Shown in pieces: positions 4,030 through 53,325 of a stretch of 64,000 nucleotides of DNA. Positions within the stretch are counted from its first letter, which is position 1; each line of letters begins with the position of its first letter. The stretch spans positions 64,001 to 128,000 of IMG/VR virus record IMGVR_UViG_3300045988_162176. One strand, given 5' to 3'. The notes under the pieces were generated by a model. It saw only the letters and a list, made by a program, of their open reading frames with translations, searched no databases and was not told the DNA's origin. The position numbers and the translations under genes are program-made. The DNA is from a virus.

Positions 4030-5748
4030 TTAGGCAAAAGCCTTAGTCTCAACAGCGTCATAACGCTTAGTCAGAAGAACATCCATAAGTGCATCCCAAG
4101 GATTAGTCTTGCCCGAGAGAACCATTTTCAAAGTTTGGACACTAAACCCGCTGACCATGATACCATAGTCATTCTTAGTCATGGGAAGACCATTTCCGGT
4201 ATTACCCGCTCCTGCGACATTCCAGAAAATGATTTTGCTCATTTCATACCCAGCGTTCTTGTACTTCTGCTCAATAGACTTAAGGAAAGCAGGAGCTTCC
4301 TGAGCAGTAGCACGAGTGCTGTTATAACCCCAATAACCATAACCACTGCCAGTGCTAACATTACGGATATTTACCATAGAATCCCAACCACCATCACTGA
4401 TAATCAGAATATTCTTAGGCAAATCACTCTGAGGAGAATGATTCTTAATTGCAGTATCAAGAATCAGGTCAAATACTGCTTCAAGGTTGGTATTAGCAAC
4501 CTCACTATGACGAGCAGCTTCCCTAAGATTTGCACGCAAAGAGTCATGATTAACATTAACCATCTGAGGACGTGCAGAGAAAGTAATGTAACGACCCTTA
4601 TATGCACCCTTAGCACGCTCTGCAAAGTAAATTGCAAGGGAGTTAGCAACCTCAAGAGCAGTCATACGAGTACGACCCACAGTAGCACACATAGAACCAG
4701 AGCCATCGGCAACAACAATAGTGGAACTATCATCGGTTACAAGATTGGGAAGAGCCTTCCACATGCCTTCAAGGGCGGCATCATAAGAACGAGGAGAAGT
4801 ACCCCAATCATTCTCACAATACTTGTGAACAATGTCACAAGGATTAGAGACAGAAGAATTAATCTTCGCCTCACCCTTAGTAAGAGCGTTCAGATATGCA
4901 CGGCGGCGCTCTTCATCATTACGAAGGAAAGCCTTATTGTAATTAAGGTTTGCCTTAGAAGGAACAGTCTCGTAATCAATGCTCTGCCAGTTCTGAGAAG
5001 ACATCTTACGCTCAACAACGTCAAGATACTTACGGAGAGCAGACAGACCCTTACGATACTCACGCTCAGTCAGACCGAGCATATCCATAGTCTTAAGACC
5101 ACGCTTACGAGTATCATGGCTGTGAGAAGAAGCACTATCAAGCCACTTCGCCATAAGGCTAATGGACTTACCCTTCTTCATGTTAGCCATATCTTCCTTC
5201 CACTGCTTGCGAATCAGTTCACGAACAACAGGCTTAGTGGTAGGATTATCCATGACAGTATAGATATAATCCCAACGAGAATACTCAGGAATCATAGGAA
5301 TCAGGTTCGCCACAATCTGAGCACCACCATTGTTCATCATATCCTTAAGACAAATCTGGAAGAGACGGCGCTCACCCTGACCCTCACGGATATCGCCAGC
5401 ATAGAACAGCCAACGAATAGCGAGACGAGGATTCTCAGAATAAGCGGCACGGAACTTCTTCACAATATCGCCATCGGGAAGACTACGAAGAGCAGAGATG
5501 GAAGTGTTGATGTCAAGAAGAGCAGAACCAGAGGACTTATAGGCAATAGCACCATTAGAAGTGTACTGCTTATCAGCAGGAAGAGAAGGAACTGCAACCT
5601 TAGTGTAGTAGCCCTTGGCAGTATTCTCAACCTTGTCCATGAAAGAAGCCTTACGGCTAACTCGGTTGGACTTAGTAACAGGCTTTTCAGGCTTAGGAGC
5701 CCAAACCTTAGTGTTATTCTTCTTGTTAGGATTGTTGTAGTTATACAT
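4030..5748 (-). CDS. vWA-domain protein with large N-terminal DUF2828/TROVE-like region
   Basis: MIDAS motif VVADGSGSM and vWA-like C-terminal half. Start placed at ATG 5748 behind AAGGAGAA; the longer ORF-track N-terminus would overlap repeat E0. Confidence 0.7.
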   Translation of the reverse strand: MYNYNNPNKKNNTKVWAPKPEKPVTKSNRVSRKASFMDKVENTAKGYYTKVAVPSLPADKQYTSNGAIAYKSSGSALLDINTSISALRSLPDGDIVKKFRAAYSENPRLAIRWLFYAGDIREGQGERRLFQICLKDMMNNGGAQIVANLIPMIPEYSRWDYIYTVMDNPTTKPVVRELIRKQWKEDMANMKKGKSISLMAKWLDSASSHSHDTRKRGLKTMDMLGLTEREYRKGLSALRKYLDVVERKMSSQNWQSIDYETVPSKANLNYNKAFLRNDEERRRAYLNALTKGEAKINSSVSNPCDIVHKYCENDWGTSPRSYDAALEGMWKALPNLVTDDSSTIVVADGSGSMCATVGRTRMTALEVANSLAIYFAERAKGAYKGRYITFSARPQMVNVNHDSLRANLREAARHSEVANTNLEAVFDLILDTAIKNHSPQSDLPKNILIISDGGWDSMVNIRNVSTGSGYGYWGYNSTRATAQEAPAFLKSIEQKYKNAGYEMSKIIFWNVAGAGNTGNGLPMTKNDYGIMVSGFSVQTLKMVLSGKTNPWDALMDVLLTKRYDAVETKAFA

Positions 5749-5770
5749 AATTTTCTCCTTTTCTAAAGGA

Positions 5771-5836
5771 CTAGACTCTTTTTGTCCTTTTTTCAAAATA
5801 AAAGTTTTTTGTAGTTTGCTGTGAGAGTCTAACTAC
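5771..5836 (-). repeat. E-repeat copy E0 (in the 5' leader of the vWA gene)
   Basis: Arms ctagactct (5771-5779) / agagtctaa (5824-5832), the latter preceded by tttgctgtg. Confidence 0.7.
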
Positions 5837-16158: not shown

Positions 16159-16524
16159 TTACTTGTTAGAAGTACCAAGTACTCCACGTTCTGCACGATT
16201 CTCAACACGAAGATTCATCCACAATAAGCATTCTTCCAAATGAGTAAGTGCTAGTGCATTTTCACGACAAGCAAATTCACCAGACTGAAAACCCTGAAGA
16301 CGGTCGCGAACAATCTCAAGAAGGTCTGTATCAAGAAGACCATGAATAGAATCAGTTTCCTTACGCGGACCGTTCTGGAAAGCAATCGAATAAGGAGTCT
16401 CATTGCCCTGACCATCAGTTACAATAACATTGTAAACATGGTTGGCATTACCCACACCCTTTTCATCAACTGCATAAACAGTGTTGAGATTATTGTTCTT
16501 CTGAATAGTATTAAGCTTACGCAT
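16159..16524 (-). CDS. Hypothetical protein
   Basis: ORF track. Confidence 0.6.
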   Translation of the reverse strand: MRKLNTIQKNNNLNTVYAVDEKGVGNANHVYNVIVTDGQGNETPYSIAFQNGPRKETDSIHGLLDTDLLEIVRDRLQGFQSGEFACRENALALTHLEECLLWMNLRVENRAERGVLGTSNK

Positions 16525-17571: not shown

Positions 17572-17679
17572 AATTTTTTGTCTCCTTTAATTTCTTTGTT
17601 TTACTTTAGTTATTATTTTAGTTTTTTGTTTCTTCTGCTTATATGTCAAAAGGAAAAATACTTTTCCTTAGATATTTCA

Positions 17680-17749
17680 GCGGCGACTTCGAATCGAACG
17701 AGCATTTCACGGGTTAGAGCCGTGCGCATTGACCATTATACTACGCCGC
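17680..17749 (-). tRNA. Suppressor tRNA, anticodon CUA (reads UAG)
   Basis: Acceptor GCGGCG/CGCCGC, D arm GTAT-AATGGTCA-ATGC, perfect anticodon stem CACGG/CCGTG, loop CTCTAAC. T loop is TTCGATT but the T stem is weak (3 bp). No encoded CCA. Confidence 0.65.
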
Positions 17750-17954: not shown

Positions 17955-18090
17955 TGGTGGGAATGGAGTGACTCGAACACTCAATTTCCCGATTTGGTGT
18001 TTTAGACAAGTCTTGCACTTGCATTTGAAGTTTTACTTTTAAACTACTAAAACATAAGTCGGGCCCTCTGACCAATTGAGATACATCCCC
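17955..18090 (-). tRNA. tRNA-Ile-like (anticodon TAT) interrupted by a 59-nt insert between positions 36 and 37
   Basis: Acceptor GGGGATG/CATTCCC+ACCA, D arm TCTC/GAGG, anticodon stem CCCGA/TCGGG, T arm GAGTG-TTCGAGT-CACTC. Loop CTTAT[59 nt]AA becomes CTTATAA after excision. Confidence 0.7.
17995..18053 (-). ncRNA. tRNA-like insert lacking an anticodon arm (intron candidate)
   Basis: GTTTTAG-TA-GTTT-AAAAGTA-AAAC-TTCAAAT-GCAAG-TGCAAGA-CTTGT-CTAAAAC-A-CCA: 7-bp acceptor, D-like arm, T arm, discriminator and CCA. Confidence 0.65.
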
Positions 18091-18565: not shown

Positions 18566-18646
18566 TGGCAGGGATGGAAGGATTCGAACCTTCGAAAAAA
18601 ACTCATAGAGTCAAAGTCTACTGCCTTACCGCTTGGCTACACCCCT
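18566..18646 (-). tRNA. tRNA-Gln (anticodon TTG), unusually long variable region
   Basis: D arm GCCAAGCGGTAAGGC as in bacterial tRNA-Gln, stem GTAGA/TCTAT, loop CTTTGAC, 11-nt variable GAGTTTTTTTC, CCA encoded. Confidence 0.7.
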
Positions 18647-21260: not shown

Positions 21261-21394
21261 CTAGACTCATTTTACAAAATCTGTTGCTCTACCAGTTGAG
21301 CTAACTCCCGATGGTCGGGAGCAGAGGATTCGAACCTCCAACACACAGGCCCATAGCATTTGTGATTGTAAAGTTGCTGTTAGAGTCTACTTGA
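21261..21394 (-). repeat. E-repeat copy E6 enclosing a circularly permuted tRNA gene
   Basis: Arms ctagactc (21261-21268) / gagtctac (21383-21390) plus gttgctgtta. A second helix pairs TTTACAA with TTGTAAA. Confidence 0.75.
21275..21349 (-). tRNA. Circularly permuted tRNA (Gln-like, UUG): 3' half precedes 5' half
   Basis: Minus strand reads CCTGT-GTGTT-GGAGG-TTCGAAT-CCTCT-GCTCCCG-A-CCA-T-CGGGAGT-TA-GCTC-AACTGGTA-GAGC-A-ACAGA-TTTTG. The acceptor strands pair 7/7 only in this permuted order. Confidence 0.65.
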
Positions 21395-23479: not shown

Positions 23480-24505
23480 CCCTTTTATTTTATTAAATAT
23501 ATAAGGAACAAAAACTGATAACTACTGACAGACCAGCTTTTCACTTATCTGTCCTCGGTTTGGCTGAGGAGGGGCTATTCCTTATAAGGGGCTTACACTC
23601 AACTATCTTGGTCATTTTCATTATCAGTTTTGCTCATTGCATAAGGGTTTAACGTACCCAGTTAAGCAAAGCAACGGTCTTTCTATTGTTACCAGTCCAT
23701 CAGACTTGGAGGGCGGTTCAGTGTCGAATACATTGTAACCAGCTAAACTGTATTCCAAGATAAGTTTCGTACTATATCTTACGGATTTCTTGTTTTTTTA
23801 AAAAGACATCAAGAAATATCTAACCATTCTGTCTTTTGGAGCGGCATCGAAGAATCGAACTCCAAACATAATAAAAGTATTGTCCATGGCTACTTTTATT
23901 ATTACACCAGTTGCCGCATATTTGCTGTCTCTCCAAGCTGTCACCGCTAATATGGTTGTAGGTTCTGGACGGTCTGAACTTAGGTGCGCCATACACACAT
24001 CCTAACATTAAGCGATACTCCATCTGTTAGGCGAACTTCCATCTTTATAAGACGGTATCGTAGTTACTGGACCTCATAATTGGATTCGAACCAACTTCCT
24101 CTCCCGATGTGGCTGTTATCGCTAAGGAGCTACCTTAGTGTTTATTCAACATCAGTTATCGAGAATGCACCATTACACTAATGGGGATATAAATGTTATA
24201 GACCTTTTAACTATAACTCACAGGCTTTCCCTTATTCAAACAAGGTGGCGGGACGTGTGCTGTGTTTTTAAAAGAAAGTCCTTGTTATACTTTTTCTTTC
24301 AAGGATTTAGTGGTAAGAACTTTTCTTGACCATAGGCGTTCTCAAACCTACTCCTTTACCTATATGCTCAACATAAATTAGGTTAAGCATCTCAACCTTG
24401 AGGTCAACTGGGGTATCTTACAGCCGTTCGGTTTATTTTTAGTTTGAGTAAACCTTCCTCAAACACTCCTTCATCCACTTTTTTACAAGGATACGGAATC
24501 CACGA
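23480..24505 (-). ncRNA. ~1 kb ORF-free structured region with embedded tRNA-like modules
   Basis: GC-enriched. Two T-arm plus 3'-acceptor-CCA ends (CCA at 23837-23839 and 24068-70). ACAGCAA/ACAGCCA motifs as in the E repeats. ORF-track ORFs here are short and overlapping. Confidence 0.35.
23837..23917 (-). ncRNA. tRNA-like RNA: acceptor + T arm + 12-bp hairpin replacing the D and anticodon arms
   Basis: GCGGCAA...ATGCCGC-T-CCA, T arm TGGAG-TTCGATT-CTTCG, hairpin ATAATAAAAGTA/TACTTTTATTAT. The 5' leader GGAGAGACAGCAAATAT pairs TTGGAG with CTCCAA at the 3' end. Confidence 0.45.
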
Positions 24506-24972: not shown

Positions 24973-25419
24973 TTAGCCTACTGCTTCTTCAGTTACAGTA
25001 TCTTCATCAGGGATAACATTACCAGTGTTATCAATCTTGTCATTCGAAGGAACAGGATTGGTGTTTTGAAGCTGGCTCTCCTTCAATTTTTCATCATGAA
25101 GTTCACGATTCACCTCATAAACAGCGGCTTCAATAGCCTTACGAACTTCATCTGCATCAAGAGTGATACCAAGAGCTTCCATCTGCTGATTAAAATACTT
25201 TGTTGCTTCCTGCAAGCGCTTTTCAATTTCCCGTGGGAACATCTGCTCAACAGCCTTAACTGCAATCAAAGCATACTTATGAATAAGTTCTGCTTGAGTA
25301 AGAGCATGATTAACATCGTCCAACTTACCCTTCTTCTTAAGATAAGGAATAAGGACAACTGTAAAAATCAAAGAGCACAAACCAATTACAGCAACTACGA
25401 TAGGGGTAATATCAGTCAT
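24973..25419 (-). CDS. Putative holin-like membrane protein
   Basis: Single N-terminal TM helix then a charged helical tail; resembles LL-H-type holins by recollection only. Confidence 0.4.
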   Translation of the reverse strand: MTDITPIVVAVIGLCSLIFTVVLIPYLKKKGKLDDVNHALTQAELIHKYALIAVKAVEQMFPREIEKRLQEATKYFNQQMEALGITLDADEVRKAIEAAVYEVNRELHDEKLKESQLQNTNPVPSNDKIDNTGNVIPDEDTVTEEAVG

Positions 25420-25446: not shown

Positions 25447-25475
25447 ATTATAGCATCTAACAAACGCTTTGTCAA
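25447..25475 (-). promoter_or_regulatory. Sigma70-type promoter
   Basis: TTGACA (25470-25475) - 17 nt - TATAAT (25447-25452). Confidence 0.7.
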
Positions 25476-25497: not shown

Positions 25498-25631
25498 TGG
25501 AGCAAGATACGAGATTCGAACTCGCCCTTACGGTTTTGGTCCTTTAAGTAAGACTTGAACTTACATCAATGGTTTTTCATTAAACTATTAAAGGGGAAGA
25601 CCGTCGTGCTAACCACTAACACTAATCCTGC
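25498..25631 (-). tRNA. tRNA-Gly-like (anticodon TCC) interrupted by a 58-nt insert between positions 36 and 37
   Basis: Acceptor GCAGGAT/ATCTTGC+T+CCA, D arm GTGT/GCAC, perfect stem ACGGT/ACCGT, T arm GCGAG-TTCGAAT-CTCGT. Loop CTTCC[58 nt]AA becomes CTTCCAA after excision. Confidence 0.7.
25537..25594 (-). ncRNA. tRNA-like insert lacking an anticodon arm (homolog of 17995-18053)
   Basis: CCTTTAA-TA-GTTT-AATGAA-AAAC-CATTGAT-GTAAG-TTCAAGT-CTTAC-TTAAAGG-A-CCA. Confidence 0.65.
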
Positions 25632-26254: not shown

Positions 26255-26728
26255 TTACTTTTTCACCGAAGTCACGCCATTAAAATCATACAAACGTACA
26301 ATATGGCTTAGTCCTAAAGTGTCAGAAATATCAGCACTAATGATAGACCAATCTCCACCAGCAAGACCACACCCAATCATATAAGGCATAGCAATCTCTT
26401 CTCCAATAGGAATCATTTCACGAATCTTAAGAAGACATTCATGAAAATATTCATAGTTGGTGTTTACATTTGGTCCACCAATGCCAATCTGAGAAAACAT
26501 ATTAAGAAAAACTTTATCTTTGTTTTCCTCAATTCGAAGAACTTTACCATAAAGCTCTTCAGGAGTATGATAACTACAAAACTTATTATACTCCAAATAA
26601 ACATGAGGATAATTCTTCTTAATTTGAAGAGCAACACCAGCGCCCATTACACCAAAGGTATTAGCCTGATGACAAATATACTTTGCCGAAGTCTTAAGGA
26701 CATCGCCTTGAATAATAGACACTGACAT
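26255..26728 (-). CDS. Macro-domain protein (ADP-ribose binding/hydrolase)
   Basis: IIQGDVL...ICHQANTFGVMGAGVALQI...GCGLAGG, the typical macro-domain pattern. Confidence 0.75.
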   Translation of the reverse strand: MSVSIIQGDVLKTSAKYICHQANTFGVMGAGVALQIKKNYPHVYLEYNKFCSYHTPEELYGKVLRIEENKDKVFLNMFSQIGIGGPNVNTNYEYFHECLLKIREMIPIGEEIAMPYMIGCGLAGGDWSIISADISDTLGLSHIVRLYDFNGVTSVKK

Positions 26729-30848: not shown

Positions 30849-31289
30849 TTAATCTAAACTTATTTTACGTCTATATCTACATTCTCTGACAAACCAATCT
30901 TGCAATTCTTTTACAGTCATTGGTTTTGGGGGTGGTTCTAATTTATATTCTCCATTTTCATCCAAAGGTTGACCAGTATAACAATAAGCTCTAACATAAC
31001 ATTCTGCCGCAGGAACCATATCTTCTGGATTTTTTACATAATGGTCAGCTATAAATCCAACCGCAAATTTTCCAGCAGTAGTATAAGTTTTTACGTGCCT
31101 TGACAGGCAAAGATATTGTCCTCTATCAACTGGCTTATTATTATATTTGTATTCTCCTAAAGCACAACCAACATCCCACAGTTCCATATAATAATCTGTA
31201 TCTGTAGGATAAATCTTTGTGCCTTTTACATTTAGATTGCTAAAATCAATTAACTACTTTGCTCTTGCAATATTTTTAAACAGACTCAT
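30849..31289 (-). CDS. Hypothetical protein (TAG at 31254-31256)
   Basis: The ORF-track 30849-31187 ORF extends through TAG to ATG 31289, which overlaps the end of the Thg1-like gene. Confidence 0.5.
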
Positions 31290-32100
31290 TGGTAAATACC
31301 TTCTGACTAATAAAGTCTTTACCTTCTTCACTTGTTAAAATTGGCATTTCATAATCAAGAATCCACTTATAACGAATAGCCTCCTGACCATCTTTGCCAA
31401 TAACAGTAGTAGGAACACGATATGCACAAGTACCACGTTTCTCTACTGTTGTATAATCGTTCCAGTTTACACCCTTTTCAGTAAACATCTTATCCTGTAA
31501 TTTGGTAGTATTAATACCATGAAGTTCTTTTTGAGAATACAAAGATTGAGCAACTGCCTGAATAGAATTTCGAGTACAATCCTGCTGTCTCCAAACAAAA
31601 TAATTATGCACTTCAAAGGCAGGGACAACAAATACTCTACTATCAAAGGTGGGCATTTCTTTTCCCTTACGAACCATTTTCCAATCGTAAGAATCTTGAT
31701 TCATATTAAAGATATCTAAGGTTGTATCAATAATAGTATTCTCGGCAAAATAATTATTAAACCAAAGAGTACAAAGAGCCGCAGATGTACTAACAATTTT
31801 TTGAATATTATTGTCAAACCATGGCTGAGAATTTCTTTCGCTCTGAATCATGACAAGAGAAATTTCATCTGACTCAACATAACCAAACTTAACATTTGGA
31901 ATAATTTCACAGAGCTTAAGCATAGTCTGTTGCATGGTTTTAACAAAAATAGGGTCAAAAGGTTTCTTCATACCACGGCAGAATGAATGAAAATGAGCTC
32001 CATCCAAACGGATAATTACAGGAAAATTCTCAGGAAGATAATTACGATATCTATTCTCGTAAGCACCCTTCATTCTATCGCTTAAAGTTTTATACTCCAT
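31276..32100 (-). CDS. Thg1-like protein (tRNA-His guanylyltransferase / 3'-5' polymerase family)
   Basis: RLDGAHFHSF, YVESDEISLV, FDSRVFVVP, YFVWRQQDCTRN match the Thg1 family signatures. Confidence 0.8.
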   Translation of the reverse strand: MEYKTLSDRMKGAYENRYRNYLPENFPVIIRLDGAHFHSFCRGMKKPFDPIFVKTMQQTMLKLCEIIPNVKFGYVESDEISLVMIQSERNSQPWFDNNIQKIVSTSAALCTLWFNNYFAENTIIDTTLDIFNMNQDSYDWKMVRKGKEMPTFDSRVFVVPAFEVHNYFVWRQQDCTRNSIQAVAQSLYSQKELHGINTTKLQDKMFTEKGVNWNDYTTVEKRGTCAYRVPTTVIGKDGQEAIRYKWILDYEMPILTSEEGKDFISQKVFTNESV

Positions 32101-33336: not shown

Positions 33337-34584
33337 TCATCTAATCTCCACTAAATATCGAATAGTTACTTGGTCAGGACGATAGAAAATAATTTCTGGA
33401 TTGCGAAGCATTCCCTTTTCAGGAGAAGCGTAAACACAATGGCAAGGAGGATTCTTTTTCTGAAGCACATCAAAATTAAAATGATAACACTCGGAAGTAT
33501 GTTCATAAACAGTATAAGGATTTCCATAAGCCACTTCAAAAATAGCCATGAATCCAGTATTATTACTTCCTCTTGCCCAGTAAGAACCACTTACACTTGT
33601 ATAACCAATACTCTTTCGAGCTAAAGTGCTAAAATACAATCCATCGCTAAACATCGAACCTGTATAGATAGCATTTGCGGGACGAATCTTCAAACCCATT
33701 TTAAGGATATTAAAGAAATTTTGAGACCTGCTACCATGCCACATAAGTTTAGTGTTTGTAATATTATAATCTTTAATAAAAGAATTAAATGCTTTATTAG
33801 TCTCTAAATTATTAACACTCCATGCTTTTACGAATCTATCAGAATCTCGCCCAAGCATATTTTTAATTCTGGCAACTTCATCCTGAGTGACATCTTCCAT
33901 GGTAATACCCATCTTCTGCAAAATGCTTTCAGAAGCTTTAATTTCAGAATCGGTGTCGGCAATTTTTACCTTGGGCTTATAAACTTGACCAGCCATAGTA
34001 TCAAGCAAGCTTTGTTCCTCAGAAAGCTTTTTGTCGTATTCGGAAGAATCAGAAACAAGACAGTCAGAAACGCGCTTCATCTTACGAGGAACAATAATAA
34101 ACAATTCATTCAAATTCTTGTTAAATTCCTCAACAGACCAGTTTTTGTAGTTCGCTGCAATATAGTCAATCTTTTCCTGAGCAGCATCAATCATAGCCTG
34201 AGTAACAGCTTCAGCACGAACTGAATAAGCAGATTGAATAGTCTTATTAGCATAATCCCAAAGACGTTTAACAATCTCTCTAACAGATAAATTTTGAACC
34301 AAACCAAATTCATCTACCCCGTTAGACTTGTCTTCAACTTTAGAATCAGCAATAACTTCCTGCATCAAATCAGAACGGTCAACATACCCCTTCTTCAATT
34401 TAGAAGAAAGAGTAGAATTCCATTTGGACATAGGATAAGTTTTAGTCTGAGGAGCAGCACCAACACGACCATATTCAGCCGTAAAAGTATCATCTCCATT
34501 TGGACTAATTTTGTAATATTTATTATGTCCAAGGTCTCCAAAATTAGGGTCTACAAAGATTAAATATTTGGGAGTATAATCCAT
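33337..34584 (-). CDS. WGR-domain poly(ADP-ribose) polymerase-like ADP-ribosyltransferase
   Basis: N-terminal WGR-like NKYYKI...AEYGRVGA. C-terminal H-Y-E pattern LMWHGSR ... GLYFS ... NPEIIFY. Confidence 0.75.
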   Translation of the reverse strand: MDYTPKYLIFVDPNFGDLGHNKYYKISPNGDDTFTAEYGRVGAAPQTKTYPMSKWNSTLSSKLKKGYVDRSDLMQEVIADSKVEDKSNGVDEFGLVQNLSVREIVKRLWDYANKTIQSAYSVRAEAVTQAMIDAAQEKIDYIAANYKNWSVEEFNKNLNELFIIVPRKMKRVSDCLVSDSSEYDKKLSEEQSLLDTMAGQVYKPKVKIADTDSEIKASESILQKMGITMEDVTQDEVARIKNMLGRDSDRFVKAWSVNNLETNKAFNSFIKDYNITNTKLMWHGSRSQNFFNILKMGLKIRPANAIYTGSMFSDGLYFSTLARKSIGYTSVSGSYWARGSNNTGFMAIFEVAYGNPYTVYEHTSECYHFNFDVLQKKNPPCHCVYASPEKGMLRNPEIIFYRPDQVTIRYLVEIR

Positions 34585-34617
34585 AATTCCATCTCCTATA
34601 AGTAAATCTCTATGATT

Positions 34618-34646
34618 AGATTACCATAGAGATTTACTTTTGTCAA
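34618..34646 (-). promoter_or_regulatory. Sigma70-type promoter
   Basis: TTGACA (34641-34646) - 17 nt - TAATCT (34618-34623). Confidence 0.5.
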
Positions 34647-34686
34647 GGGTTTATTCAGTTATTTTTTACTAATCCAATCAGTTAAA

Positions 34687-35406
34687 TTACTGGTAGCAGA
34701 AAGTAAGATGAATCTTATAATTCTTGCTTACCTCGTCAAACTTTTTAGCATCTTCAATCGTTTCAGTAAAAACACGAAGAATCATTTCACGAACATCTTC
34801 CCAATCAAGATTACCCTTGCCACACCCAATAAAAGGCATAGCAAGATAAGAAATCTCTTCATTAATACAATACTGAGCAAGGTCTTCAATACAATGTTCA
34901 AGATTAGTCATAGTAATTGGTTCATACTTTTTATTAGCAATCATAAGTAAAAATAAATTCCGAATCCAAATAGCTTCACCAGCACAACGCTCATCAAACT
35001 TATCAGGAATCTTATCAACAATATGATAATAATTGTCAAGTCTACGAGCAGTATCACTACCCAAAGAGAGGTCAGCGGGGATACCATAACAGATATTGTA
35101 ATAAGGAGGAAGGTCGAACATATCCTTATTTACTTCTTCATACTCAACAGGATTTTCATAACTGGTATCATCGACTTCATCATCTTCATCTGCAAATTCA
35201 AGCTCACCATCATGCACCACAAGAGGACAACCACAGTTAGGACAATGCATTACCTTGGGCTTCAAAACAGAAACATAACCAGAAGTAGAAACAATCTTAC
35301 CATCTTCATCAGTAGAAGCAACTGCGGTAGTAAAATAATCCTTATCCTGAGTAGAAGTTACCTTTGGCTCATCGAACTTGTAATTGCGACTAAAAATATT
35401 AGCCAT
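34687..35406 (-). CDS. Zinc-ribbon + macro-like domain protein
   Basis: CPNCGC in the N-terminal half. The C-terminal YLAMPFIGCGKGNLDWEDV resembles a macro-domain C-terminus. Confidence 0.5.
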   Translation of the reverse strand: MANIFSRNYKFDEPKVTSTQDKDYFTTAVASTDEDGKIVSTSGYVSVLKPKVMHCPNCGCPLVVHDGELEFADEDDEVDDTSYENPVEYEEVNKDMFDLPPYYNICYGIPADLSLGSDTARRLDNYYHIVDKIPDKFDERCAGEAIWIRNLFLLMIANKKYEPITMTNLEHCIEDLAQYCINEEISYLAMPFIGCGKGNLDWEDVREMILRVFTETIEDAKKFDEVSKNYKIHLTFCYQ

Positions 35407-42385: not shown

Positions 42386-42819
42386 TTTCCATAAACCTCT
42401 TTCTTTTTATTTTCATAAAATTTATTCAATCCTACGAGGTCAGGAGCATTTGGACAAGTCTTTTCTCCCATAAATGTAGTAATCATATTAATAATTCTCT
42501 TATTTCTATGATTAAGAGGAGGAATAGAAGTGTCCTTAAAAGCAGAACAAATAAAACGAGAACAAATTTCAGGTCGTACTTCATAAATTTGGCACTTATT
42601 TTCCTTGTTCAAAAAAGGACAAATATCTTTAAAATCTTTATCTAAAGCAGTATTACGATTAATCATTTTTACTTCTGGATGCTGACCAAGATACTTTTTA
42701 ATCTTCTTTACTTCTGCATCACTTACACAAAGAATTGCAGAACAACAAGCTCCACATCCAGAACATTTACCATCAATAGTATGGTCTACTTTGTTAGCCA
42801 TCTGACTATTCATTCCCAA
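42382..42819 (-). CDS. YkgJ/UPF0153-type CxxCxxCC metal-cluster protein
   Basis: DGKCSGCGACCSA motif. Confidence 0.6.
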   Translation of the reverse strand: MGMNSQMANKVDHTIDGKCSGCGACCSAILCVSDAEVKKIKKYLGQHPEVKMINRNTALDKDFKDICPFLNKENKCQIYEVRPEICSRFICSAFKDTSIPPLNHRNKRIINMITTFMGEKTCPNAPDLVGLNKFYENKKKEVYGK

Positions 42820-43256
42820 ATTCCTCCATCAAGTTCTTCTCTTACGCGCATAAGAATCTTTCCCAACTTATTTTCTCCAACACCATTACAAACTCCCCAT
42901 GTAGTATCATGCCACCAATTTCCCTCTTCAAGATAAGCGTCACCAGTATCAAGAAGAAGTTTGGCGAGATTTTTGTTCTGAGTAAACTTTGCACTAACAA
43001 TTTCATACATTGTTTGCTCTTTAATATCTTCCCAATCTTTACGCAACTTACAATTCCTACCAGCAAGTTTTGCTTGAGCTGGATTCATGGAAATATATTT
43101 TTTACGGTCTTCATCTCTAATTTCTTTTTGTGCTTGAAACGCTGCTTCTGAATTTTGATAGGTTAAACCATTATAACTTACAGGTGCATTATAAAAATTA
43201 GAGAGAAAAGCATAAGCATCAAAAAAATCTTTAATTGCTTCCATATTATTTTCCAA
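42810..43256 (-). CDS. NADAR (DUF1768) domain protein
   Basis: FLSNFYNAPVSYNGLTYQNSEAAFQAQK and the C-terminal WGVCNGVGENKLGKILM are typical of the NADAR family. Confidence 0.75.
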   Translation of the reverse strand: MENNMEAIKDFFDAYAFLSNFYNAPVSYNGLTYQNSEAAFQAQKEIRDEDRKKYISMNPAQAKLAGRNCKLRKDWEDIKEQTMYEIVSAKFTQNKNLAKLLLDTGDAYLEEGNWWHDTTWGVCNGVGENKLGKILMRVREELDGGIWE

Positions 43257-46969: not shown

Positions 46970-48898
46970 TTATCCTTTCATAATAGAATCTGCATCTAAA
47001 ACATTATACCAACGTCTTAAATTAAATTCCTTTTTCCTAATTTTTTGATAACTACTTACAGGAGTATAAAAACCTACTACTCTTGCATATTGGTCAGCCA
47101 CAGGTTTTCCACAAATAGGACAGGTTTGAGTTCCAATAAAAGAATGTTTATCTTCACAAACATTAATCTTAGTCGTAAAAGCGAAATAAATTACACCTTT
47201 AGAAGCAACATAATTAAGCATGTCCCATGCACTTTCTTTGGTAGCAAAACGATTTTCAATGTCAATATGAGCAATACATCCGCCGCCGCATTTTTCATCA
47301 AGTACACTACCTAAACGACACTTCTCTTTAATAGTGCATTGTTCAGTTAATGGAATCCATTGATTTGAGTAAATAAAATATTTATCTTGCTCAAACAAAA
47401 GATTATCTGCGGTACAAATTACACCAGCGCAATTTTCCCGTGGAATAGATTCAACATTAAAAGAAAAATCACATTCAAAACTATCTTTTACCTCATTGAT
47501 AGTATCAAGAATCTGGCAAGCAAATTCTAATCCTTCTTCTGTATAATATTTATTACCAAACTCATCAGTATTAATTAAACCAAAAGAATCAATAACCTCA
47601 TACATTCCAAGAATACCAATAGTACAATATTGCTTGTCAAGTTCAACCGCCCCTTCTTGATAATTAGGAAGCAGACCTTTTTCTATATTGCGCTCTAAAA
47701 TATGACGCATACTAGTTAATGCCTTGCAATCCAAAAGAACACGGTCTTTAAGAAGTTCAATATATTTCTTTTTATTAAATTTGGTCTCATATGCAATACG
47801 CATAAGATTAATTGTACTTACACGACAAGAACCAACAGACAATGCTGTACCACCAATAGAATTAACAAAAGCATCAAGCTTTTGAGTATCTGAAAGCAAA
47901 CGACAGCAGTTTGAAAGAACCCCAACATTATCAGACACGAAAAAATTAGAATCAGACCATTTAATATTATGATAACAAGCCCATCGAGCAGTTTCTTCAT
48001 CTTCAAATTTACCATCTTTATAGAGAAGAGAATAAGTTAAAACGGGGAAAGTAAACATATTTTCACTGCGAATATCACTTACCACATCCATAAACAAACG
48101 CTGGCACTTCATAATTTCTTCAATTTGGTCGATAGCGAAAGACCCGTCTGGAAATTCCAATCCACCAAACAAAGATTCAAGATAAGGACGGTCAAAAATA
48201 CTTACATTTGTAAAAGCACACTGGTCAATTCTAAGGAATGGCTGATTTAATCTGTAAACGAATTTCTGAAAATATTGTCTTAAATAAGTCTCTGGGTCTT
48301 TAAAGTAATGCCCATTCTTTATATCCATTTTCCAGAAATAATAAGCCCAAATAATTACATTTGGGAGGCCAACGGCCCGAGACTAACGGTTACTGAGGAA
48401 TGAAACAAACTCAATAACATCATCAAAATATGTATCCAAGTGCTTAGGAGGCTGGTTGTTATACCCTCCAAGGAAAAACAATCCTTCTCTTGCCAAACGA
48501 GTTAAATCATTCGCCCAGCAATAAGGAAAATAACTTGCAGTGGCAGAATCGTTAAGATAAAATCCTTTGCTAAACTCCTATTCTAACCAAGCCTTAGCGG
48601 TACGAAGCCCCCATTTTTTCTTAATTTCAAGGAAAATTTTATTTAAACCAAAAAGCTTATCTTCGCTTTTCCCTTTTTCAGTCATAAAAGAACGAATATC
48701 TCTATGACTAGCATTTGCATTAGGGTCGATGGTAGCATCTGCCATTGTGCTTTGATTTACGAATTTATCTAAGAATTCTGAAAAATCTAACTAGCTAGAA
48801 TGAACCCCATTAATATATTCAAAATCTTCACCATATTTCTTTTTTAAGTCTTCAAGACATCTTTCAAAATCTTTTGTTAAACGAAGTGAAATGTCCAT
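46970..48898 (-). CDS. nrdD: Anaerobic ribonucleoside-triphosphate reductase (three in-frame TAGs)
   Basis: C-terminal Zn ribbon CEDKH...CPICG and glycyl-radical motif ARVVGFYTPV. The N-terminal 190 codons join via TAGs at 48383, 48578 and 48791. RBS GGGAGG lies before ATG 48898. Confidence 0.85.
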
Positions 48899-50949: not shown

Positions 50950-52308
50950 TTACCCTTCCACCATAGAGTTTTTAAAACGCTTTAAATTGTGTAGGGCTTT
51001 TGTAATTTCAGAATATTTGTAGCAAAACTGTTTCTTCAGCAAGAAATCGTTTTCTTGCCCAAGATATTTGGTCTTTGTTCTGCCCTTTAATACTTTAGGA
51101 AGTTTATCCATCCAAAGCATTGCTTCTTTTTTATCATTCCAAAAGTCTACACATTCCGCATTTCCTTTAACTAAAATTTTATCAATAAGCTCTTTATAGA
51201 GATTAAGATATTCATGAACAGTATTATAATATTCCATAATTAAATCTCTATATGCTTCAGGACATTTTGCCAAAAAGTCATCAAATCTATCTTCGTGAAT
51301 AGCATTAATAACAGCGTTAGGAGAAATATTTTTAGATAATGCTTTATGCATTAAAACATAATCCGATGTTTTGACTTTGCATCTAAAATGATTTTTATGT
51401 CTATCAACCATATCAACTACCCAACCTTCTTTTTCAGAAGAAAGATAATTATCAGTATCAGCTAAAATGCTAAATAAAGTAGCATTATAATACCATTGAG
51501 TCATTTTAGAATCATATTCCTCAGCCATATCACTAAGGATATCAAAAGAAACTTCCTTACCATCCTTAACATCTCTTGCCGCAAGTAAATATAATCCTTC
51601 TTGAGATTCATTATATTTAACAACAATAGGATTTTTTGGAGAAATATATTCAAAAATAAAAGTATAATCAGGATAATCCTTAATTAATTCTTTCTGCCCA
51701 TCAGATAAGAGCTTATAACCCTCAGCAAGTCTCCAAGATTCAACAGGGTCTAATGCCTGAGAACCAGAACCTAAAATTCTGTCTTCCTCTGCAATATATC
51801 TGTATTGCTGATAAGAACCATCAAGCTTATTAGTAATAAAAACTGAATGAGCAAAATTATATTTAGACCTAATATTTTTAGGAGACCAATCACCATCATC
51901 CTCACCATAGTTCTTAAACTTTGCCAAAGATGCAAGAGCAATTTCATCGTTCTTTAAATCAAAGACACAAGAACGACATTCTCTATAAAGACCATCATAT
52001 AATTCAAAGAAAGAGCCTAAATCATAATCATCAGATAATTCAATAAAACCCTTGTACTTAAAAAGCACATAATGGTCATAACAAGTAATCTGAAGAGGGT
52101 CAAAAATCTTATTTAACTTTTCATTAAGTTTAGGAGTAATATTCCCCCATACTTCAAGAACTCTGTCAAGCCAATCATTAAAATTATAATTCTCAGGACA
52201 AGGTTCATTGTTAAGGAGAGTATAAGACTGGATATACTTTCTTTTAACAGTCATAACATATTCATAAAGAGGATGCCAAAGAAACTCTTTTTGAAAACGA
52301 AAATTCAT
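50950..52308 (-). CDS. RNA ligase (T4 Rnl1-like)
   Basis: Nucleotidyltransferase motif I TNKLDGS; length and adjacency to a polynucleotide-kinase-like gene. Confidence 0.6.
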   Translation of the reverse strand: MNFRFQKEFLWHPLYEYVMTVKRKYIQSYTLLNNEPCPENYNFNDWLDRVLEVWGNITPKLNEKLNKIFDPLQITCYDHYVLFKYKGFIELSDDYDLGSFFELYDGLYRECRSCVFDLKNDEIALASLAKFKNYGEDDGDWSPKNIRSKYNFAHSVFITNKLDGSYQQYRYIAEEDRILGSGSQALDPVESWRLAEGYKLLSDGQKELIKDYPDYTFIFEYISPKNPIVVKYNESQEGLYLLAARDVKDGKEVSFDILSDMAEEYDSKMTQWYYNATLFSILADTDNYLSSEKEGWVVDMVDRHKNHFRCKVKTSDYVLMHKALSKNISPNAVINAIHEDRFDDFLAKCPEAYRDLIMEYYNTVHEYLNLYKELIDKILVKGNAECVDFWNDKKEAMLWMDKLPKVLKGRTKTKYLGQENDFLLKKQFCYKYSEITKALHNLKRFKNSMVEG

Positions 52309-52344: not shown

Positions 52345-53325
52345 TTATTCTTCAGAAATTCCACTTGCAATTTTATCACATTCATTAAACAAGAAAAGCT
52401 TATCAAGATTTTCTTTTCCCATAACCTTTTCCCATTTAGCTTTAGACTTTTCAGTTTCAAGAAAGAATGGGAGCATATGGAAATTAACATAAAACAGACA
52501 TTTTAAAATATCATTCATATTAGTAAATCCAATGCAATCCAGATTCGCTAAGAGGTCATATGTCCCTACATTATGATGACTATAATATCTATAATCACCA
52601 GAACCATCTTCTTTGGGCTGTCCAGTAGTTAACTTGCCTAAATCATGAATCTGTGCGGCTCTATAAAGAACCTTATCGTCAGTTCTCTTAGCAACTTCCT
52701 CAGCACAAATCCTGCAATGCTCATCTAAAGTATACTTATGATGATGAGTCTTTTGGTCAAAACCTTTCATCAAGCTCATAATATAGTCATCATCAGTAGT
52801 CCAATTAGACTGAGGCACAATTACTTCAAACTGATTAAAATTCCAACCAATTAAATTAATTGTATCAAAACCTTCCTCATAAAAAGGAATTTCAAACTTA
52901 CCAATCTGTCTATCAATAACTTCTTCGGGAACTGTACGAGCCCTTGCTCTATTCTGTCTTTTGCAAACAGCAATAGGAGTAGTCATAACATAAGCAACTT
53001 TAGTGACATTTTCCTTATTGCGAACAATATCCAACAAGCTCTTACGAGATTTAACATTAATATTAGTTGCATCGACAATGATATTCATTTTATCAACGCA
53101 ATTATTAATACGGCGACGAACTTCTTTAAAGACCTCATCATTATGAGTTTGGTCATTTACATCTCCAAAAACAGTTTCACGAATTTCATCCGACGAAACA
53201 ATCATTGTGGGCTGACCCATTTTAGTCAACATATCTTTAAGATTCTGAGCAAGAGTAGATTTGCCACTTGCAACAACTCCAATCATCATCATAAAATTCG
53301 TATGTTCCATTTTTGTTCTCCTCAC
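52345..53325 (-). CDS. P-loop polynucleotide kinase-like domain fused to an HD phosphohydrolase domain
   Basis: Walker A GVVASGKST in the N-terminal half and HD signature AAQIHDLGK in the C-terminal half. Confidence 0.6.
   Translation of the reverse strand: MRRTKMEHTNFMMMIGVVASGKSTLAQNLKDMLTKMGQPTMIVSSDEIRETVFGDVNDQTHNDEVFKEVRRRINNCVDKMNIIVDATNINVKSRKSLLDIVRNKENVTKVAYVMTTPIAVCKRQNRARARTVPEEVIDRQIGKFEIPFYEEGFDTINLIGWNFNQFEVIVPQSNWTTDDDYIMSLMKGFDQKTHHHKYTLDEHCRICAEEVAKRTDDKVLYRAAQIHDLGKLTTGQPKEDGSGDYRYYSHHNVGTYDLLANLDCIGFTNMNDILKCLFYVNFHMLPFFLETEKSKAKWEKVMGKENLDKLFLFNECDKIASGISEE

What the first reader, a model, noticed from the sequence alone, without database searches (positions are those of the whole stretch)
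25498..25631. Second, homologous tRNA-like insert at the same 36/37 position in a different tRNA (Gly, UCC)
This independent tRNA body has acceptor GCAGGAT/ATCTTGC and anticodon stem ACGGT/ACCGT. It carries a 58-nt insert (25537-25594) with the same architecture as 17995-18053: CCTTTAA-TA-GTTT-..-AAAC-7 nt-GTAAG-TTCAAGT-CTTAC-TTAAAGG-A-CCA.

The acceptor sequences of the two inserts differ, yet both pair 7/7. The TAGTTTAA..AAAC core is conserved.

Excision of +1..CCA again yields a perfect loop, CTTCCAA. Two cases with the same insertion point and compensatory acceptor stems argue for a functional class rather than a chance insertion.
Basis: partly seen in the sequence, partly recalled or inferred. 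Interest (0 to 1): 0.9.

Follow-up and report, generated by a model that had tools for sequence, protein, structure and literature searches.

The report
tRNA-shaped intron inside phage tRNA-Gly
A phage tRNA-Gly gene is interrupted in its anticodon loop by a 58-base miniature tRNA whose own ends are exactly the intron boundaries, which suggests that the cell's ordinary tRNA-trimming enzymes cut it out and the phage's RNA ligase reseals the tRNA.

Summary
Positions 25631..25498 hold a tRNA-Gly(UCC) gene. It is split between anticodon positions 36 and 37 by a 58-nt anticodon-arm-less mini-tRNA (25594..25537) that ends in ACCA. A sister element lies in tRNA-Ile(UAU) at 18053..17995.

It is not an artefact. 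The same interrupted genes occur in more than 60 gut and rumen phage contigs. Three relatives carry the uninterrupted Gly gene, identical to the predicted spliced product, so the boundaries are fixed without ambiguity.

Similar elements of 49-88 nt, one of them a full tRNA-Arg, sit in about ten other tRNA species at 34/35, 35/36 or 36/37. The intron almost always runs from the nested acceptor stem's nucleotide +1 through N73-CCA. Covariation supports both the intron helices and the interrupted exons.

My best explanation is inferred, not shown. RNase P cuts at +1, a 3'-end endonuclease cuts after CCA, and the phage's Rnl1-type ligase, encoded next to a polynucleotide kinase, seals the anticodon loop.

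The only precedent I found is the "enigmatic" tRNA introns of Lak megaphages (2019), which have a different architecture and no proposed mechanism. I call this a new variant of a known kind and rate its interest as high.

The parts
25498..25631 (-). Interrupted tRNA-Gly(UCC) gene, 134 nt, with encoded CCA
   Evidence: Sequence. ARAGORN calls Gly(tcc) after excision of the insert. The MFE fold is the host cloverleaf with a nested mini-tRNA. Relatives carry the same gene with a 58-nt insert, a 69-nt insert or none.
25595..25631 (-). 5' exon, 37 nt, tRNA positions 1-36, ending in anticodon UCC
   Evidence: Boundary fixed by the empty-site alleles L010, L018 and L021.
25537..25594 (-). Intron, a 58-nt mini-tRNA without an anticodon arm. 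It has an acceptor stem, D arm, 7-nt linker, T arm, discriminator A and CCA.
   Evidence: Rfam tRNA hit of 41.6 bits on 25540..25594. Descriptor hit. Covariation. It equals the 69-nt allele of relatives minus 11 nt.
25588..25594 (-). Intron acceptor stem, 5' strand CCTTTAA. Its first base is the 5' splice site and the expected RNase P site.
   Evidence: Pairs 7/7 with 25541..25547. All 7 pairs covary across homologues.
25572..25585 (-). Intron D-arm-like hairpin GTTT-AATGAA-AAAC. TAGTTTAA..AAAC is the most conserved sequence of the family.
   Evidence: Alignment A1. Pair counts. In this 58-nt variant ViennaRNA prefers an alternative hairpin, UUAAUG/CAUUGA.
25548..25564 (-). Intron T arm GTAAG-TTCAAGT-CTTAC
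   Evidence: Aligned to the T arm of RF00005. 4 of its 5 pairs covary.
25537..25547 (-). Intron acceptor 3' strand TTAAAGG, discriminator A and CCA. The last A is the 3' splice site.
   Evidence: Empty-site alleles. The tail is NCCA in 34 of 39 distinct introns.
25498..25536 (-). 3' exon, 39 nt, tRNA positions 37-76
17955..18090 (-). Sister case: a tRNA-Ile(UAU) gene interrupted at 36/37 by a homologous 59-nt mini-tRNA (17995..18053)
   Evidence: Rfam tRNA hit of 51.8 bits with a 62-nt insertion. ARAGORN calls Ile(tat) after excision. The intron is present in all 8 relatives found through the 5' exon alone. Exons of six intron-bearing alleles keep the cloverleaf, with 13 of 21 pairs changed on both sides.
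50950..52308 (-). Rnl1-family (T4 gp63-type) ATP-dependent RNA ligase, the candidate enzyme for sealing the exons
   Evidence: Pfam RNA_lig_T4_1, E 7e-13. PHROG 562, E 5e-33. KLDG nucleotidyl-transfer motif. 94-96% identical copies occur in 15 related contigs.
52345..53325 (-). Polynucleotide 5'-kinase, an RNA end-healing enzyme, immediately upstream of the ligase
   Evidence: Pfam AAA_33, E 1e-20. PDB hits to the C. thermocellum Pnkp kinase domain (4gp6) and to Pnkp1 (4xrp). PHROG 505 polynucleotide kinase. The homologue L087:1351-2325 has kinase plus HD phosphohydrolase domains.
18566..18646 (-). Uninterrupted tRNA-Gln(UUG). It is the intron-less counterpart of a gene that carries a 64- or 85-nt mini-tRNA intron at 35/36 in relatives.

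Best explanation
The 58 nt are a protein-processed intron, removed after transcription, that is itself a miniature tRNA.

Shown: the intervening sequence begins exactly at nucleotide +1 of a 7-bp acceptor stem stacked on a 5-bp T stem. It ends exactly after the discriminator plus CCA. It lies in the anticodon loop of an otherwise intact tRNA-Gly(UCC) gene that is under selection. Intron-less alleles of the same gene exist.

Inferred pathway:
(1) The precursor folds as the host cloverleaf with the mini-tRNA protruding from the anticodon loop.
(2) Host RNase P recognises the acceptor/T-arm helix, the elbow and the 3' RCCA of the mini-tRNA. It cuts at its +1. The 5' exon is left ending in C36-3'OH.
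(3) A tRNA 3'-end endonuclease cuts directly after CCA. This could be an RNase Z/BN that cleaves after CCA, as in Thermotoga maritima, or another enzyme. The 3' exon is left beginning with 5'-P-A37.
(4) The two halves stay held together by the host tRNA's own helices. The nick in the anticodon loop is sealed by the phage's Rnl1-type ligase, which needs exactly 3'-OH and 5'-P ends. The adjacent polynucleotide kinase would heal the ends if the cuts leave cyclic phosphate and 5'-OH instead.
(5) The products are a normal 76-nt tRNA-Gly(UCC) and a free 58-nt mini-tRNA.

The anticodon arm of the nested tRNA has decayed because excision does not need it. The parts that RNase P and 3'-end enzymes read have been kept.
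For: Boundaries: the empty-site alleles of Gly (L010, L018, L021), Gln (L007, L009) and Glu (L010) are 97-100% identical to the products predicted by the rule 'remove +1 through N73-CCA'. No sliding of the boundaries is possible.

The rule holds wherever the element sits: 34/35 in Thr, Lys and Pro; 35/36 in Gln, Asn, Tyr and Lys; 36/37 in Gly, Ile and Glu. So the ends are set by the nested tRNA, not by the host position. I required a 5-bp anticodon stem, a 7-nt loop, T33 and a purine at 37. Under that filter, 77 of 80 solutions need a 4-nt tail.

What is conserved is the RNase P and 3'-end substrate: a 12-bp acceptor plus T helix, the T loop, a D arm and NCCA (34 of 39 distinct introns). The CCA is kept even where the host tRNA gene does not encode one. 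The anticodon arm is absent, or reduced to tetraloop hairpins.

The sizes run from a complete tRNA-Arg(ACG) nested in tRNA-Tyr (L104) down to 49-nt minihelices.

The base at -1 is U in 20 and C in 4 of 24 host/intron groups, and never a purine. From my own knowledge, bacterial RNase P prefers a pyrimidine there, U above all.

The interrupted genes are functional. Gly(UCC) and Ile(UAU) are the only Gly and Ile tRNAs in the array. The Ile exons keep the cloverleaf through 13 pairs changed on both sides, with no broken pair, in six intron-bearing alleles.

The enzymes: the Rnl1 ligase and the kinase are adjacent in the window and conserved in the clade. T4 Pnkp and Rnl1 are known to repair anticodon-loop breaks (PMC3400036). 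RNase Z cleavage directly after an encoded CCA is documented for T. maritima (PMC7479834).
Against: No RNA data: neither cleavage nor ligation has been observed.

The 3' cut is the weak step. The host is probably a member of the Bacillota. From my own knowledge, Bacillus subtilis RNase Z is inhibited by CCA. No RNase Z, RNase P or other candidate nuclease was found among 61 window ORFs scanned with Pfam.

A few introns have imperfect tails (ACAA, ACCG, TTCA). Two distant ones end 1-2 nt after the acceptor stem.

Rnl1 and Pnkp are common in large phages that have no such introns, for example T4. Their presence is therefore permissive, not diagnostic.

Lak-phage introns have a 26-30-nt leader before the tRNA-like part. 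RNase P alone cannot define their 5' splice site.
Confidence: 0.5

Rival explanations
1. It is a true intron, but it is removed by other machinery. A dedicated endonuclease, not yet identified and encoded by the phage or the host, recognises the junction of the two helices or the mini-tRNA shape. The cuts leave 2',3'-cyclic phosphate and 5'-OH. The ends are healed by the phage kinase/phosphatase and sealed by Rnl1 or by host RtcB. RNase P and RNase Z are not involved.
For: The phage encodes an end-healing kinase next to the ligase. That enzyme is needed only for cyclic-phosphate and 5'-OH ends. Many ORFs in and around the tRNA array have no recognisable family. CCA is expected to block RNase Z in Bacillota (own knowledge). 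Lak introns carry a 5' leader that RNase P cannot account for.
Against: It does not explain why exactly the RNase P and 3'-end determinants are conserved (the 12-bp helix, T loop, NCCA and a pyrimidine at -1). It does not explain why both splice sites coincide with mature tRNA ends at three different loop positions. There is no bulge-helix-bulge motif. No EndA-like protein was found.
Confidence: 0.2
2. The excised mini-tRNA is the point of the arrangement. It would be a small tRNA mimic, for example a decoy for host tRNA-targeting defence nucleases or acceptor-end-modifying toxins, or a ligand for the phage's Ro-like protein. It is produced in fixed proportion with a phage tRNA, and splicing of the carrier is secondary.
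For: The intron sequence is kept more tightly than the exons. Ile introns differ by 3-5 nt while their exons differ in most stems. The CCA end is conserved. The phage invests in tRNA-like RNAs and RNA-repair or anti-defence genes: a YrlA-like RNA, a Ro-like protein, a Thg1-like protein and PARP/Macro/NADAR genes.
Against: Acceptor stems vary freely between hosts (19 versions), and so do size and the middle part (49-88 nt). That is not what a specific ligand would show. The Gly intron is dispensable in three close relatives. No free-standing copies exist in the window. This reading does not exclude the best explanation.
Confidence: 0.15
3. It is a selfish insertion that is never spliced. A mobile element derived from a tRNA has landed in the anticodon loops and inactivated these tRNA genes, which are now pseudogenes or sources of tRNA halves.
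For: Presence/absence polymorphism of the Gly intron among close relatives, uncoupled from the flanking haplotypes. Near-identical Ile introns sit in diverged host genes.
Against: The exons of interrupted genes stay perfect cloverleaves. Across six alleles, 13 of 21 pairs changed on both sides and none is broken. The Ile intron is present in every Ile allele found through the exon sequence alone. These are the only Gly and Ile tRNAs of the array. The intron's own helices are also under selection.
Confidence: 0.07
4. It is an assembly or chimera artefact, or a self-splicing ribozyme intron.
For: None beyond the unusual appearance.
Against: The same interrupted genes occur in more than 60 contigs from many independent assemblies: IMG/VR, ENA human gut, yak and rabbit. 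No Rfam ribozyme or group I/II intron hit was found in the window. 58 nt is far below the size of group I introns.
Confidence: 0.01

Closest known systems
'Enigmatic' tRNA introns of Lak megaphages (Devoto et al. 2019, Nat Microbiol, PMC6784885)
   Same: They are introns in the anticodon loops of phage tRNAs, including Gly(UCC). They contain a tRNA-like acceptor/T-arm module that abuts the 3' splice site. They sit one base 5' of the canonical 37/38 site. They are present or absent among related phages, and they are conserved where present. By my reading of their Table S6, the 3' splice site falls right after the discriminator of the nested tRNA. That fits Lak tRNA genes, which do not encode CCA.
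   Different: Lak introns are 79-114 nt. They start with a 26-30-nt leader (a hairpin plus AAATTAAA) before the tRNA-like part, so the 5' splice site is not the nested tRNA's +1. They have no CCA. Their hosts are Prevotella phages of about 26% GC. No mechanism was proposed. Here the intron is the mini-tRNA and nothing else, it ends in NCCA, and it occupies three different loop positions.
tRNA-like processing signals ('tRNA punctuation'): MALAT1 mascRNA, mitochondrial polycistrons, bacterial YrlA Y RNA
   Same: A tRNA-shaped module without a decoding anticodon arm is used, or mimics tRNA, as a substrate for RNase P and 3'-end enzymes. These enzymes define RNA ends precisely. This is established knowledge, and PMC8457004 appeared. 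The window itself has a YrlA-like hit.
   Different: Those modules separate neighbouring RNAs. Here the module lies inside another tRNA, so its release breaks the carrier, which must then be religated. That makes it an intron.
T4 Pnkp + Rnl1 tRNA repair pathway
   Same: A phage-encoded polynucleotide kinase and an Rnl1-family ligase that join tRNA halves broken in the anticodon loop (PMC3400036). Homologues are adjacent in the window.
   Different: In T4 the break is damage inflicted by the host nuclease PrrC. Here the break would be a programmed step in tRNA maturation. The ligase is 452 aa and only distantly related to T4 Rnl1: it has a Pfam hit of 49 bits and no PDB hit by sequence.
Archaeal and eukaryal protein-spliced tRNA introns (bulge-helix-bulge motif, EndA/Sen endonuclease, RtcB or Trl1 ligase)
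   Same: Short non-ribozyme introns in or near the anticodon loop, removed by an endonuclease and a ligase. In archaea they can sit at non-canonical positions.
   Different: There is no bulge-helix-bulge motif. Both junctions lie in a single internal loop at the foot of the intron helix. No EndA homologue was found. The context is a bacterial phage.
Group I self-splicing introns in bacterial and phage tRNA anticodon loops
   Same: The location is the same: the anticodon loop of bacterial-type tRNA genes.
   Different: Group I introns are at least about 200 nt long with a conserved catalytic core. Here there are 58 nt and no Rfam intron or ribozyme match.

Membership tests
Decoding tRNA (Rfam RF00005) | 7-bp acceptor stem, D arm, T arm with a T-loop consensus, discriminator | tested here: met
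   The insert scores 41.6 bits (gathering 29) with these parts aligned. The helices covary.
Decoding tRNA (Rfam RF00005) | Anticodon arm with a 7-nt loop that presents an anticodon | tested here: not met
   18 model positions are replaced by 3 nt. A 7-nt linker CATTGAT takes the arm's place. Longer alleles have a 6-bp hairpin with a GAAA tetraloop instead. So the insert is tRNA-like but not a tRNA.
Lak-megaphage-type tRNA intron | Intervening sequence in the anticodon loop of a phage tRNA, with a tRNA-like module that ends at the 3' splice site | tested here: met
   compared with Table S6 of PMC6784885.
Lak-megaphage-type tRNA intron | 5' leader (hairpin plus A-rich linker, 26-30 nt) between the 5' splice site and the tRNA-like module | tested here: not met
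   The intron starts at the first base of the nested acceptor stem.
Lak-megaphage-type tRNA intron | Presence/absence polymorphism among related phages, with the intron sequence conserved where present | tested here: met
   Gly has three alleles: empty, 58 nt and 69 nt. The Ile intron is nearly invariant.
Bulge-helix-bulge (archaeal/eukaryal) tRNA intron | Two 3-nt bulges separated by a 4-bp helix, carrying the two splice sites | tested here: not met
   In the predicted precursor fold both junctions lie in one asymmetric internal loop (CUUCC / ACCAAA) between the anticodon stem and the intron acceptor stem.
Bulge-helix-bulge (archaeal/eukaryal) tRNA intron | EndA/Sen-type splicing endonuclease available | tested here: inconclusive
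   No such domain was found in 61 window ORFs. The rest of the phage genome and the host genome were not available.
Group I self-splicing intron | Catalytic core P3-P9 detectable by covariance model, size of about 200 nt or more | tested here: not met
   No Rfam intron or ribozyme hit even at E<=1. The length is 58 nt.
tRNA-like processing signal cut by RNase P and RNase Z | Coaxial 12-bp acceptor/T helix, T loop, single-stranded 5' leader and 3' NCCA at the cleavage sites | tested here: met
tRNA-like processing signal cut by RNase P and RNase Z | Demonstrated cleavage by these enzymes at the predicted phosphodiesters | not testable with these tools
   This needs enzymology or RNA end-mapping.
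T4-type tRNA repair/sealing system (Pnkp + Rnl1) | Rnl1-family ligase with the lysine nucleotidyl-transfer motif KxDG | tested here: met
   Pfam PF09511 at 49.3 bits (cut-off 28.3). PHROG 562, E 5e-33. KLDG is in the translation.
T4-type tRNA repair/sealing system (Pnkp + Rnl1) | Bifunctional end-healing enzyme: 5' kinase plus 2',3' phosphoesterase | tested here: inconclusive
   The kinase domain is clear. An HD phosphohydrolase domain is seen only in the 37%-identical homologue from L087. It is not significant in the window protein itself.
T4-type tRNA repair/sealing system (Pnkp + Rnl1) | Joins tRNA halves nicked in the anticodon loop | not testable with these tools
   This needs biochemistry.

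The most novel reading that the evidence does not exclude
This would be a third way of splicing tRNA, and the first protein-dependent one in the bacterial and phage world. I would call these 'tRNA-punctuated' introns. A nested tRNA or tRNA minihelix is released by the universal tRNA end-processing enzymes, RNase P at +1 and a 3' endonuclease after N73-CCA. The broken carrier tRNA is then sealed by a phage Rnl1-type ligase. That would give Rnl1 and Pnkp a routine maturation role in addition to damage repair.

A corollary: the inserted DNA equals a mature tRNA end to end, including CCA, and it sits at variable anticodon-loop positions. Such introns may therefore arise when the repair ligase joins a free small tRNA into an anticodon loop that has been cut, and the product is copied back into DNA.
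Probability: 0.4. Interest if true: 0.9.

Novelty: new variant of a known kind. Interest (0 to 1): 0.8.

Why it matters
Bacteria and their phages were thought to have only self-splicing tRNA introns. The one report of short phage tRNA introns, in Lak megaphages in 2019, left them "enigmatic".

This window and its relatives supply a simple structural rule: the intron equals the nested tRNA from +1 through CCA, at any of three anticodon-loop positions. That rule points to a concrete mechanism that can be tested directly, using enzymes already available in purified form.

If it is right, four things follow. It adds a new splicing pathway. It gives phage RNA ligase and kinase systems a physiological substrate. 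It explains why the nested tRNAs lose only their anticodon arm. It offers a natural "tRNA-in-tRNA" design for synthetic biology.

In practice, standard tRNA finders miss these genes. Here the phage's only Gly and Ile tRNAs were missed, so phage tRNA repertoires and codon-usage inferences are incomplete for this group of phages.

Tried and rejected
- GenBank phages (INPHARED): blastn and megablast of the locus and of 13 kb around it gave no match. Only protein-level relatives at about 37% identity were found, in Enterocloster and Bacillus SPbeta phages.
- ARAGORN's intron mode proposes a different register, with anticodon UCA built from the CA of the intron's CCA. I rejected it because the empty-site alleles read CTTCC|AAACC. 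ARAGORN also tolerates loops that are not 7 nt long, so its alternative solutions with tail lengths 0-2 were filtered out.
- Ribozyme or self-splicing intron: no Rfam hit.
- Bulge-helix-bulge intron: the motif is absent.
- A phage-encoded RNase P, RNase Z, HARP or EndA: none was recognisable among 61 ORFs of the window.
- Correlating the intron's CCA with CCA encoding in the host tRNA gene: the correlation is not clean. Some hosts without encoded CCA still carry introns that end in CCA.
- Co-occurrence of the ligase with the introns: only close relatives were retrieved, and all of them have both, so the test does not discriminate.
- Literature: nine full-text searches found no paper that proposes a mechanism for such introns. 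The theta-ribozyme preprint on phage tRNA 3' ends does not mention introns.
- PDB sequence search with the ligase: no hit.
Full report
**Setting.** The window is AT-rich (about 33% GC). All its genes and an array of 17 ARAGORN-called tRNAs lie on the minus strand. It has no nucleotide match among GenBank phages. Its DNA polymerase III alpha is about 37% identical to those of Enterocloster and Bacillus SPbeta phages. It encodes an LL-H-type holin. One related contig was binned with a yak-rumen Eubacterium MAG. The window is therefore part of a large phage from the gut or rumen, probably infecting Bacillota; related contigs are 52-220 kb long.

**The observation.** Read on the minus strand, 25631..25498 is a tRNA-Gly(UCC) gene.
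- Its parts are GCAGGAT-TA-GTGT-TAGTGGTTA-GCAC-G-ACGGT-CTTCC [58 nt] AA-ACCGT-AAGG-GCGAG-TTCGAAT-CTCGT-ATCTTGC-T-CCA.
- The 58 nt (25594..25537) read CCTTTAA-TA-GTTT-AATGAA-AAAC-CATTGAT-GTAAG-TTCAAGT-CTTAC-TTAAAGG-A-CCA.
- ARAGORN does not call the interrupted gene. After removal of the 58 nt it calls a 76-nt tRNA-Gly(tcc). The sister locus becomes a 77-nt tRNA-Ile(tat).
- Rfam's tRNA model hits the insert itself at 41.6 bits, with the anticodon arm deleted. It hits the Ile host across a 62-nt insertion at 51.8 bits.
- A structural descriptor finds only these two elements in 64 kb and none in 30 shuffles.
- The minimum-free-energy fold of the precursor is the host cloverleaf with the mini-tRNA's acceptor and T arms nested in the anticodon loop.
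- No other Gly or Ile tRNA is present in the array.

**Not an artefact, and the boundaries are exact.**
- Pattern scans of IMG/VR, ENA/JGI metagenomes and GTDB genomes recovered the same interrupted genes in more than 60 contigs from independent assemblies. These include human-gut contigs of 140-213 kb.
- The Gly locus has three alleles with conserved flanks. One is the 58-nt intron. One is a 69-nt intron in which the linker is a 6-bp hairpin with a GAAA tetraloop (CAATAT-GAAA-ATATTG). The window's form is that allele minus 11 nt. The third, in L010, L018 and L021, is an empty site.
- The empty alleles read ...GGTCTTCC|AAACCGT... and are 99-100% identical to the predicted spliced product.
- The bases on either side of each junction differ. 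The insert can therefore only be CCTTTAA...GGACCA, between positions 36 and 37.
- ARAGORN's alternative register, which would give anticodon UCA, is thereby excluded.
- Presence or absence of the intron does not follow the upstream flank haplotypes. That points to recombination or repeated gain and loss within the population.
- The Ile intron was present in all 8 relatives found through the 5' exon alone.

**A general rule.** I searched all fetched loci for acceptor/T-arm modules. I excised each from its nucleotide +1 through the discriminator plus three bases. I then asked ARAGORN whether a tRNA results.
- This uncovered nested elements of 49-88 nt in Ile, Gly (two unrelated host genes), Gln, Glu, Lys, Thr, Pro, Asn, Asp and Tyr tRNAs.
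- With a strict filter (5-bp anticodon stem, 7-nt loop, T33, purine 37), 77 of 80 solutions need the 4-nt tail, across 24 host/intron groups.
- The insertion point is 34/35, 35/36 or 36/37, depending on the host.
- For Gln (intron in L003-L006, empty in L007 and L009, and an intron-less homologue at 18646..18566 in the window) and for Glu (L008 versus L010), empty-site alleles again match the prediction at 97-100% with no ambiguity.
- The splice sites are therefore defined by the ends of the nested tRNA, not by a fixed position in the host.
- The tail is NCCA in 34 of 39 distinct introns. The exceptions are ACAA, ACCG and TTCA. The CCA is present even where the host tRNA gene lacks an encoded CCA.
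- The base before the intron is U in 20 groups and C in 4, and never a purine.
- One element (L104) is a complete 77-nt tRNA-Arg(ACG), called as such by ARAGORN, nested at 35/36 of tRNA-Tyr(GUA). The family therefore runs from full tRNAs to bare minihelices.

**Selection on both partners.**
- Among 31 distinct sequences retrieved by a pattern that leaves the acceptor stem free, 28 pair 7/7. They use 19 different stems. Mismatched partners give 3.4/7 on average.
- On a 30-sequence alignment, 99.4% of cells pair and 14 of 16 pairs show changes on both sides. The covariation score is 0.70, against 0.18 for shuffles (0 of 500 reach it) and 0.10-0.15 for slid controls. Part of that alignment was selected for pairing, so one search is the independent test.
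- Close pairs show clean compensations. The Glu intron has GAAAGGA/TCTTTTC in one contig and GTAAGGA/TCTTTAC in another. The Asp intron hairpin has GAGTTC/GAATTC in one and TAGTTC/GAACTA in another.
- The exons of six intron-bearing Ile alleles fold into a cloverleaf with 13 of 21 pairs changed on both sides and none broken. The interrupted genes are thus maintained as tRNA genes, which requires removal of the intron from the RNA.
- All short copies lie inside anticodon loops. The only free-standing pattern matches are ordinary full-length tRNAs.

**How it probably works.**
- What is conserved in the intron is what bacterial RNase P and tRNA 3'-end enzymes read (established knowledge): the 12-bp acceptor/T helix, the T loop and elbow, the 3' RCCA, and a pyrimidine at -1. 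What is lost is the anticodon arm, which these enzymes do not need.
- I therefore infer that RNase P cuts at +1 and a 3' endonuclease cuts after CCA.
- Cleavage directly after an encoded CCA is documented for T. maritima RNase Z. The same source notes that RNase E can generate the mature CCA end in E. coli (PMC7479834).
- Such cuts leave 3'-OH on the 5' exon and 5'-P on the 3' exon. These are the substrates of an ATP-dependent RNA ligase.
- The window encodes one. It belongs to the Rnl1/T4 gp63 family, has a KLDG motif, and sits directly downstream of a polynucleotide kinase of the Pnkp type. The pair is conserved at 94-96% identity in the clade.
- A homologous kinase-HD protein lies beside the tRNA array of a distant intron-bearing contig.
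- T4 Pnkp and Rnl1 are the classic system for resealing anticodon-loop breaks (PMC3400036).
- No step of this pathway has been observed. The 3' cut is the weakest link, because CCA is an anti-determinant for B. subtilis RNase Z (own knowledge) and no nuclease candidate was recognised in the window.

**Alternatives.** These are set out under rival explanations: a dedicated unknown endonuclease with healing and sealing; a function for the released mini-tRNA; an unspliced selfish insertion; and an artefact or ribozyme. The last two are contradicted by the data.

**What is known.**
- Devoto et al. 2019 reported "enigmatic" introns in Lak megaphage tRNAs (Tyr, Phe, Thr, Gly-UCC), one of which "may encode a tRNA". 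They noted an offset of one base from the canonical site and identical sequences across cohorts, and offered no mechanism.
- By inspecting their Table S6, I find that the Lak introns carry the tRNA-like module at the 3' end. The 3' splice site falls just after its discriminator, and Lak tRNA genes lack an encoded CCA. A 26-30-nt hairpin leader precedes the module.
- The elements here have no leader and end in CCA.
- Nine full-text searches found no later work on the subject.
- I therefore class this as a new variant of a known kind. Its added value is the boundary rule and the mechanism it implies.

**Origin (speculative).** The inserted DNA equals a mature tRNA from its RNase P end to its CCA end, and it sits at variable anticodon-loop positions. 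This would fit ligation of a free small tRNA into a cut anticodon loop by the repair ligase, followed by copying into DNA. No reverse transcriptase was seen in the window, so this remains a conjecture.

Noticed in passing
window 21268..21366 (-) and 4030..5796 (-): A YrlA-like Y RNA hit (39.8 bits, below the gathering score of 69, local E 1.4e-7) with a tRNA-like module. The same window encodes a Ro/TROVE-like vWA protein (DUF2828/DUF7788/VWA; PHROG 850 'RNA-binding protein', E 1e-117). Together they suggest a phage-encoded Ro/Y-RNA pair.
   Followed up: partly
window 24068..24186 (-): A 119-nt tRNA-like RNA that ends in TCCA. It has a T arm AGTTGG-TTCGAAT-CCAATT, an acceptor-like stem and a central arm of about 60 nt. 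It is conserved in relatives (L010-L020) and matches no Rfam family. ARAGORN's intron mode gives it inconsistent identities.
   Followed up: partly
L104:7684-7760 (-) and flanks: A complete 77-nt tRNA-Arg(ACG) nested between positions 35 and 36 of a type II tRNA-Tyr(GUA). It is the full-size end of the same intron family.
   Followed up: partly
window 17679..17749 (-): A tRNA with anticodon CUA, an amber-suppressor type that ARAGORN labels Pyl. This hints at stop-codon recoding in part of the phage genome.
   Followed up: no
window 56287..61531 (-): DNA polymerase III alpha is split into two ORFs (59297..61531 and 56287..57678), with a GIY-YIG endonuclease ORF (57862..58779) between them. This looks like an intron or a homing-endonuclease insertion.
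   Followed up: no
window 46970..48328 (-): The anaerobic ribonucleotide reductase NrdD ORF begins at Pfam profile position 129. Its N-terminal part may be separated from it by an intervening sequence upstream.
   Followed up: no
window 31276..32100 (-): A Thg1-like tRNA-His guanylyltransferase / 3'-5' polymerase (Pfam E 9e-28, PHROG 4717 E 3e-75). It is another tRNA-repair-type enzyme next to the tRNA array, and it is conserved in relatives.
   Followed up: partly
window 25475..25447 (-): A perfect 12/12 sigma-70 consensus promoter (TTGACA-17-TATAAT with an upstream TG). It lies 22 nt downstream of the tRNA-Gly gene and ahead of the holin ORF 25419..24973.
   Followed up: yes
window 33337..35406, 26255..26728, 42810..43256, 16159..16524 (-): A set of ADP-ribose and anti-defence genes: PARP/WGR, two Macro-domain proteins, NADAR, and a protein with an Acb2/Tad1 hairpin domain.
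   Followed up: no
L008/L018/L039 and L095 (intron of 49-50 nt): A host tRNA with a Gln-type D arm (GCCAAGTGGTAAGGC). Under the +1..CCA rule it would have anticodon UUU (Lys). If the intron were shifted by one base it would read UUG (Gln). No empty-site allele was found to decide between the two.
   Followed up: partly
L054, L086, L108, L125 (70-nt intron): The host tRNA-Asp(GUC) predicted by the rule has T at position 37, which is unusual. An alternative 9-bp intron stem would give anticodon CAC, also with T37. This case is unresolved.
   Followed up: partly
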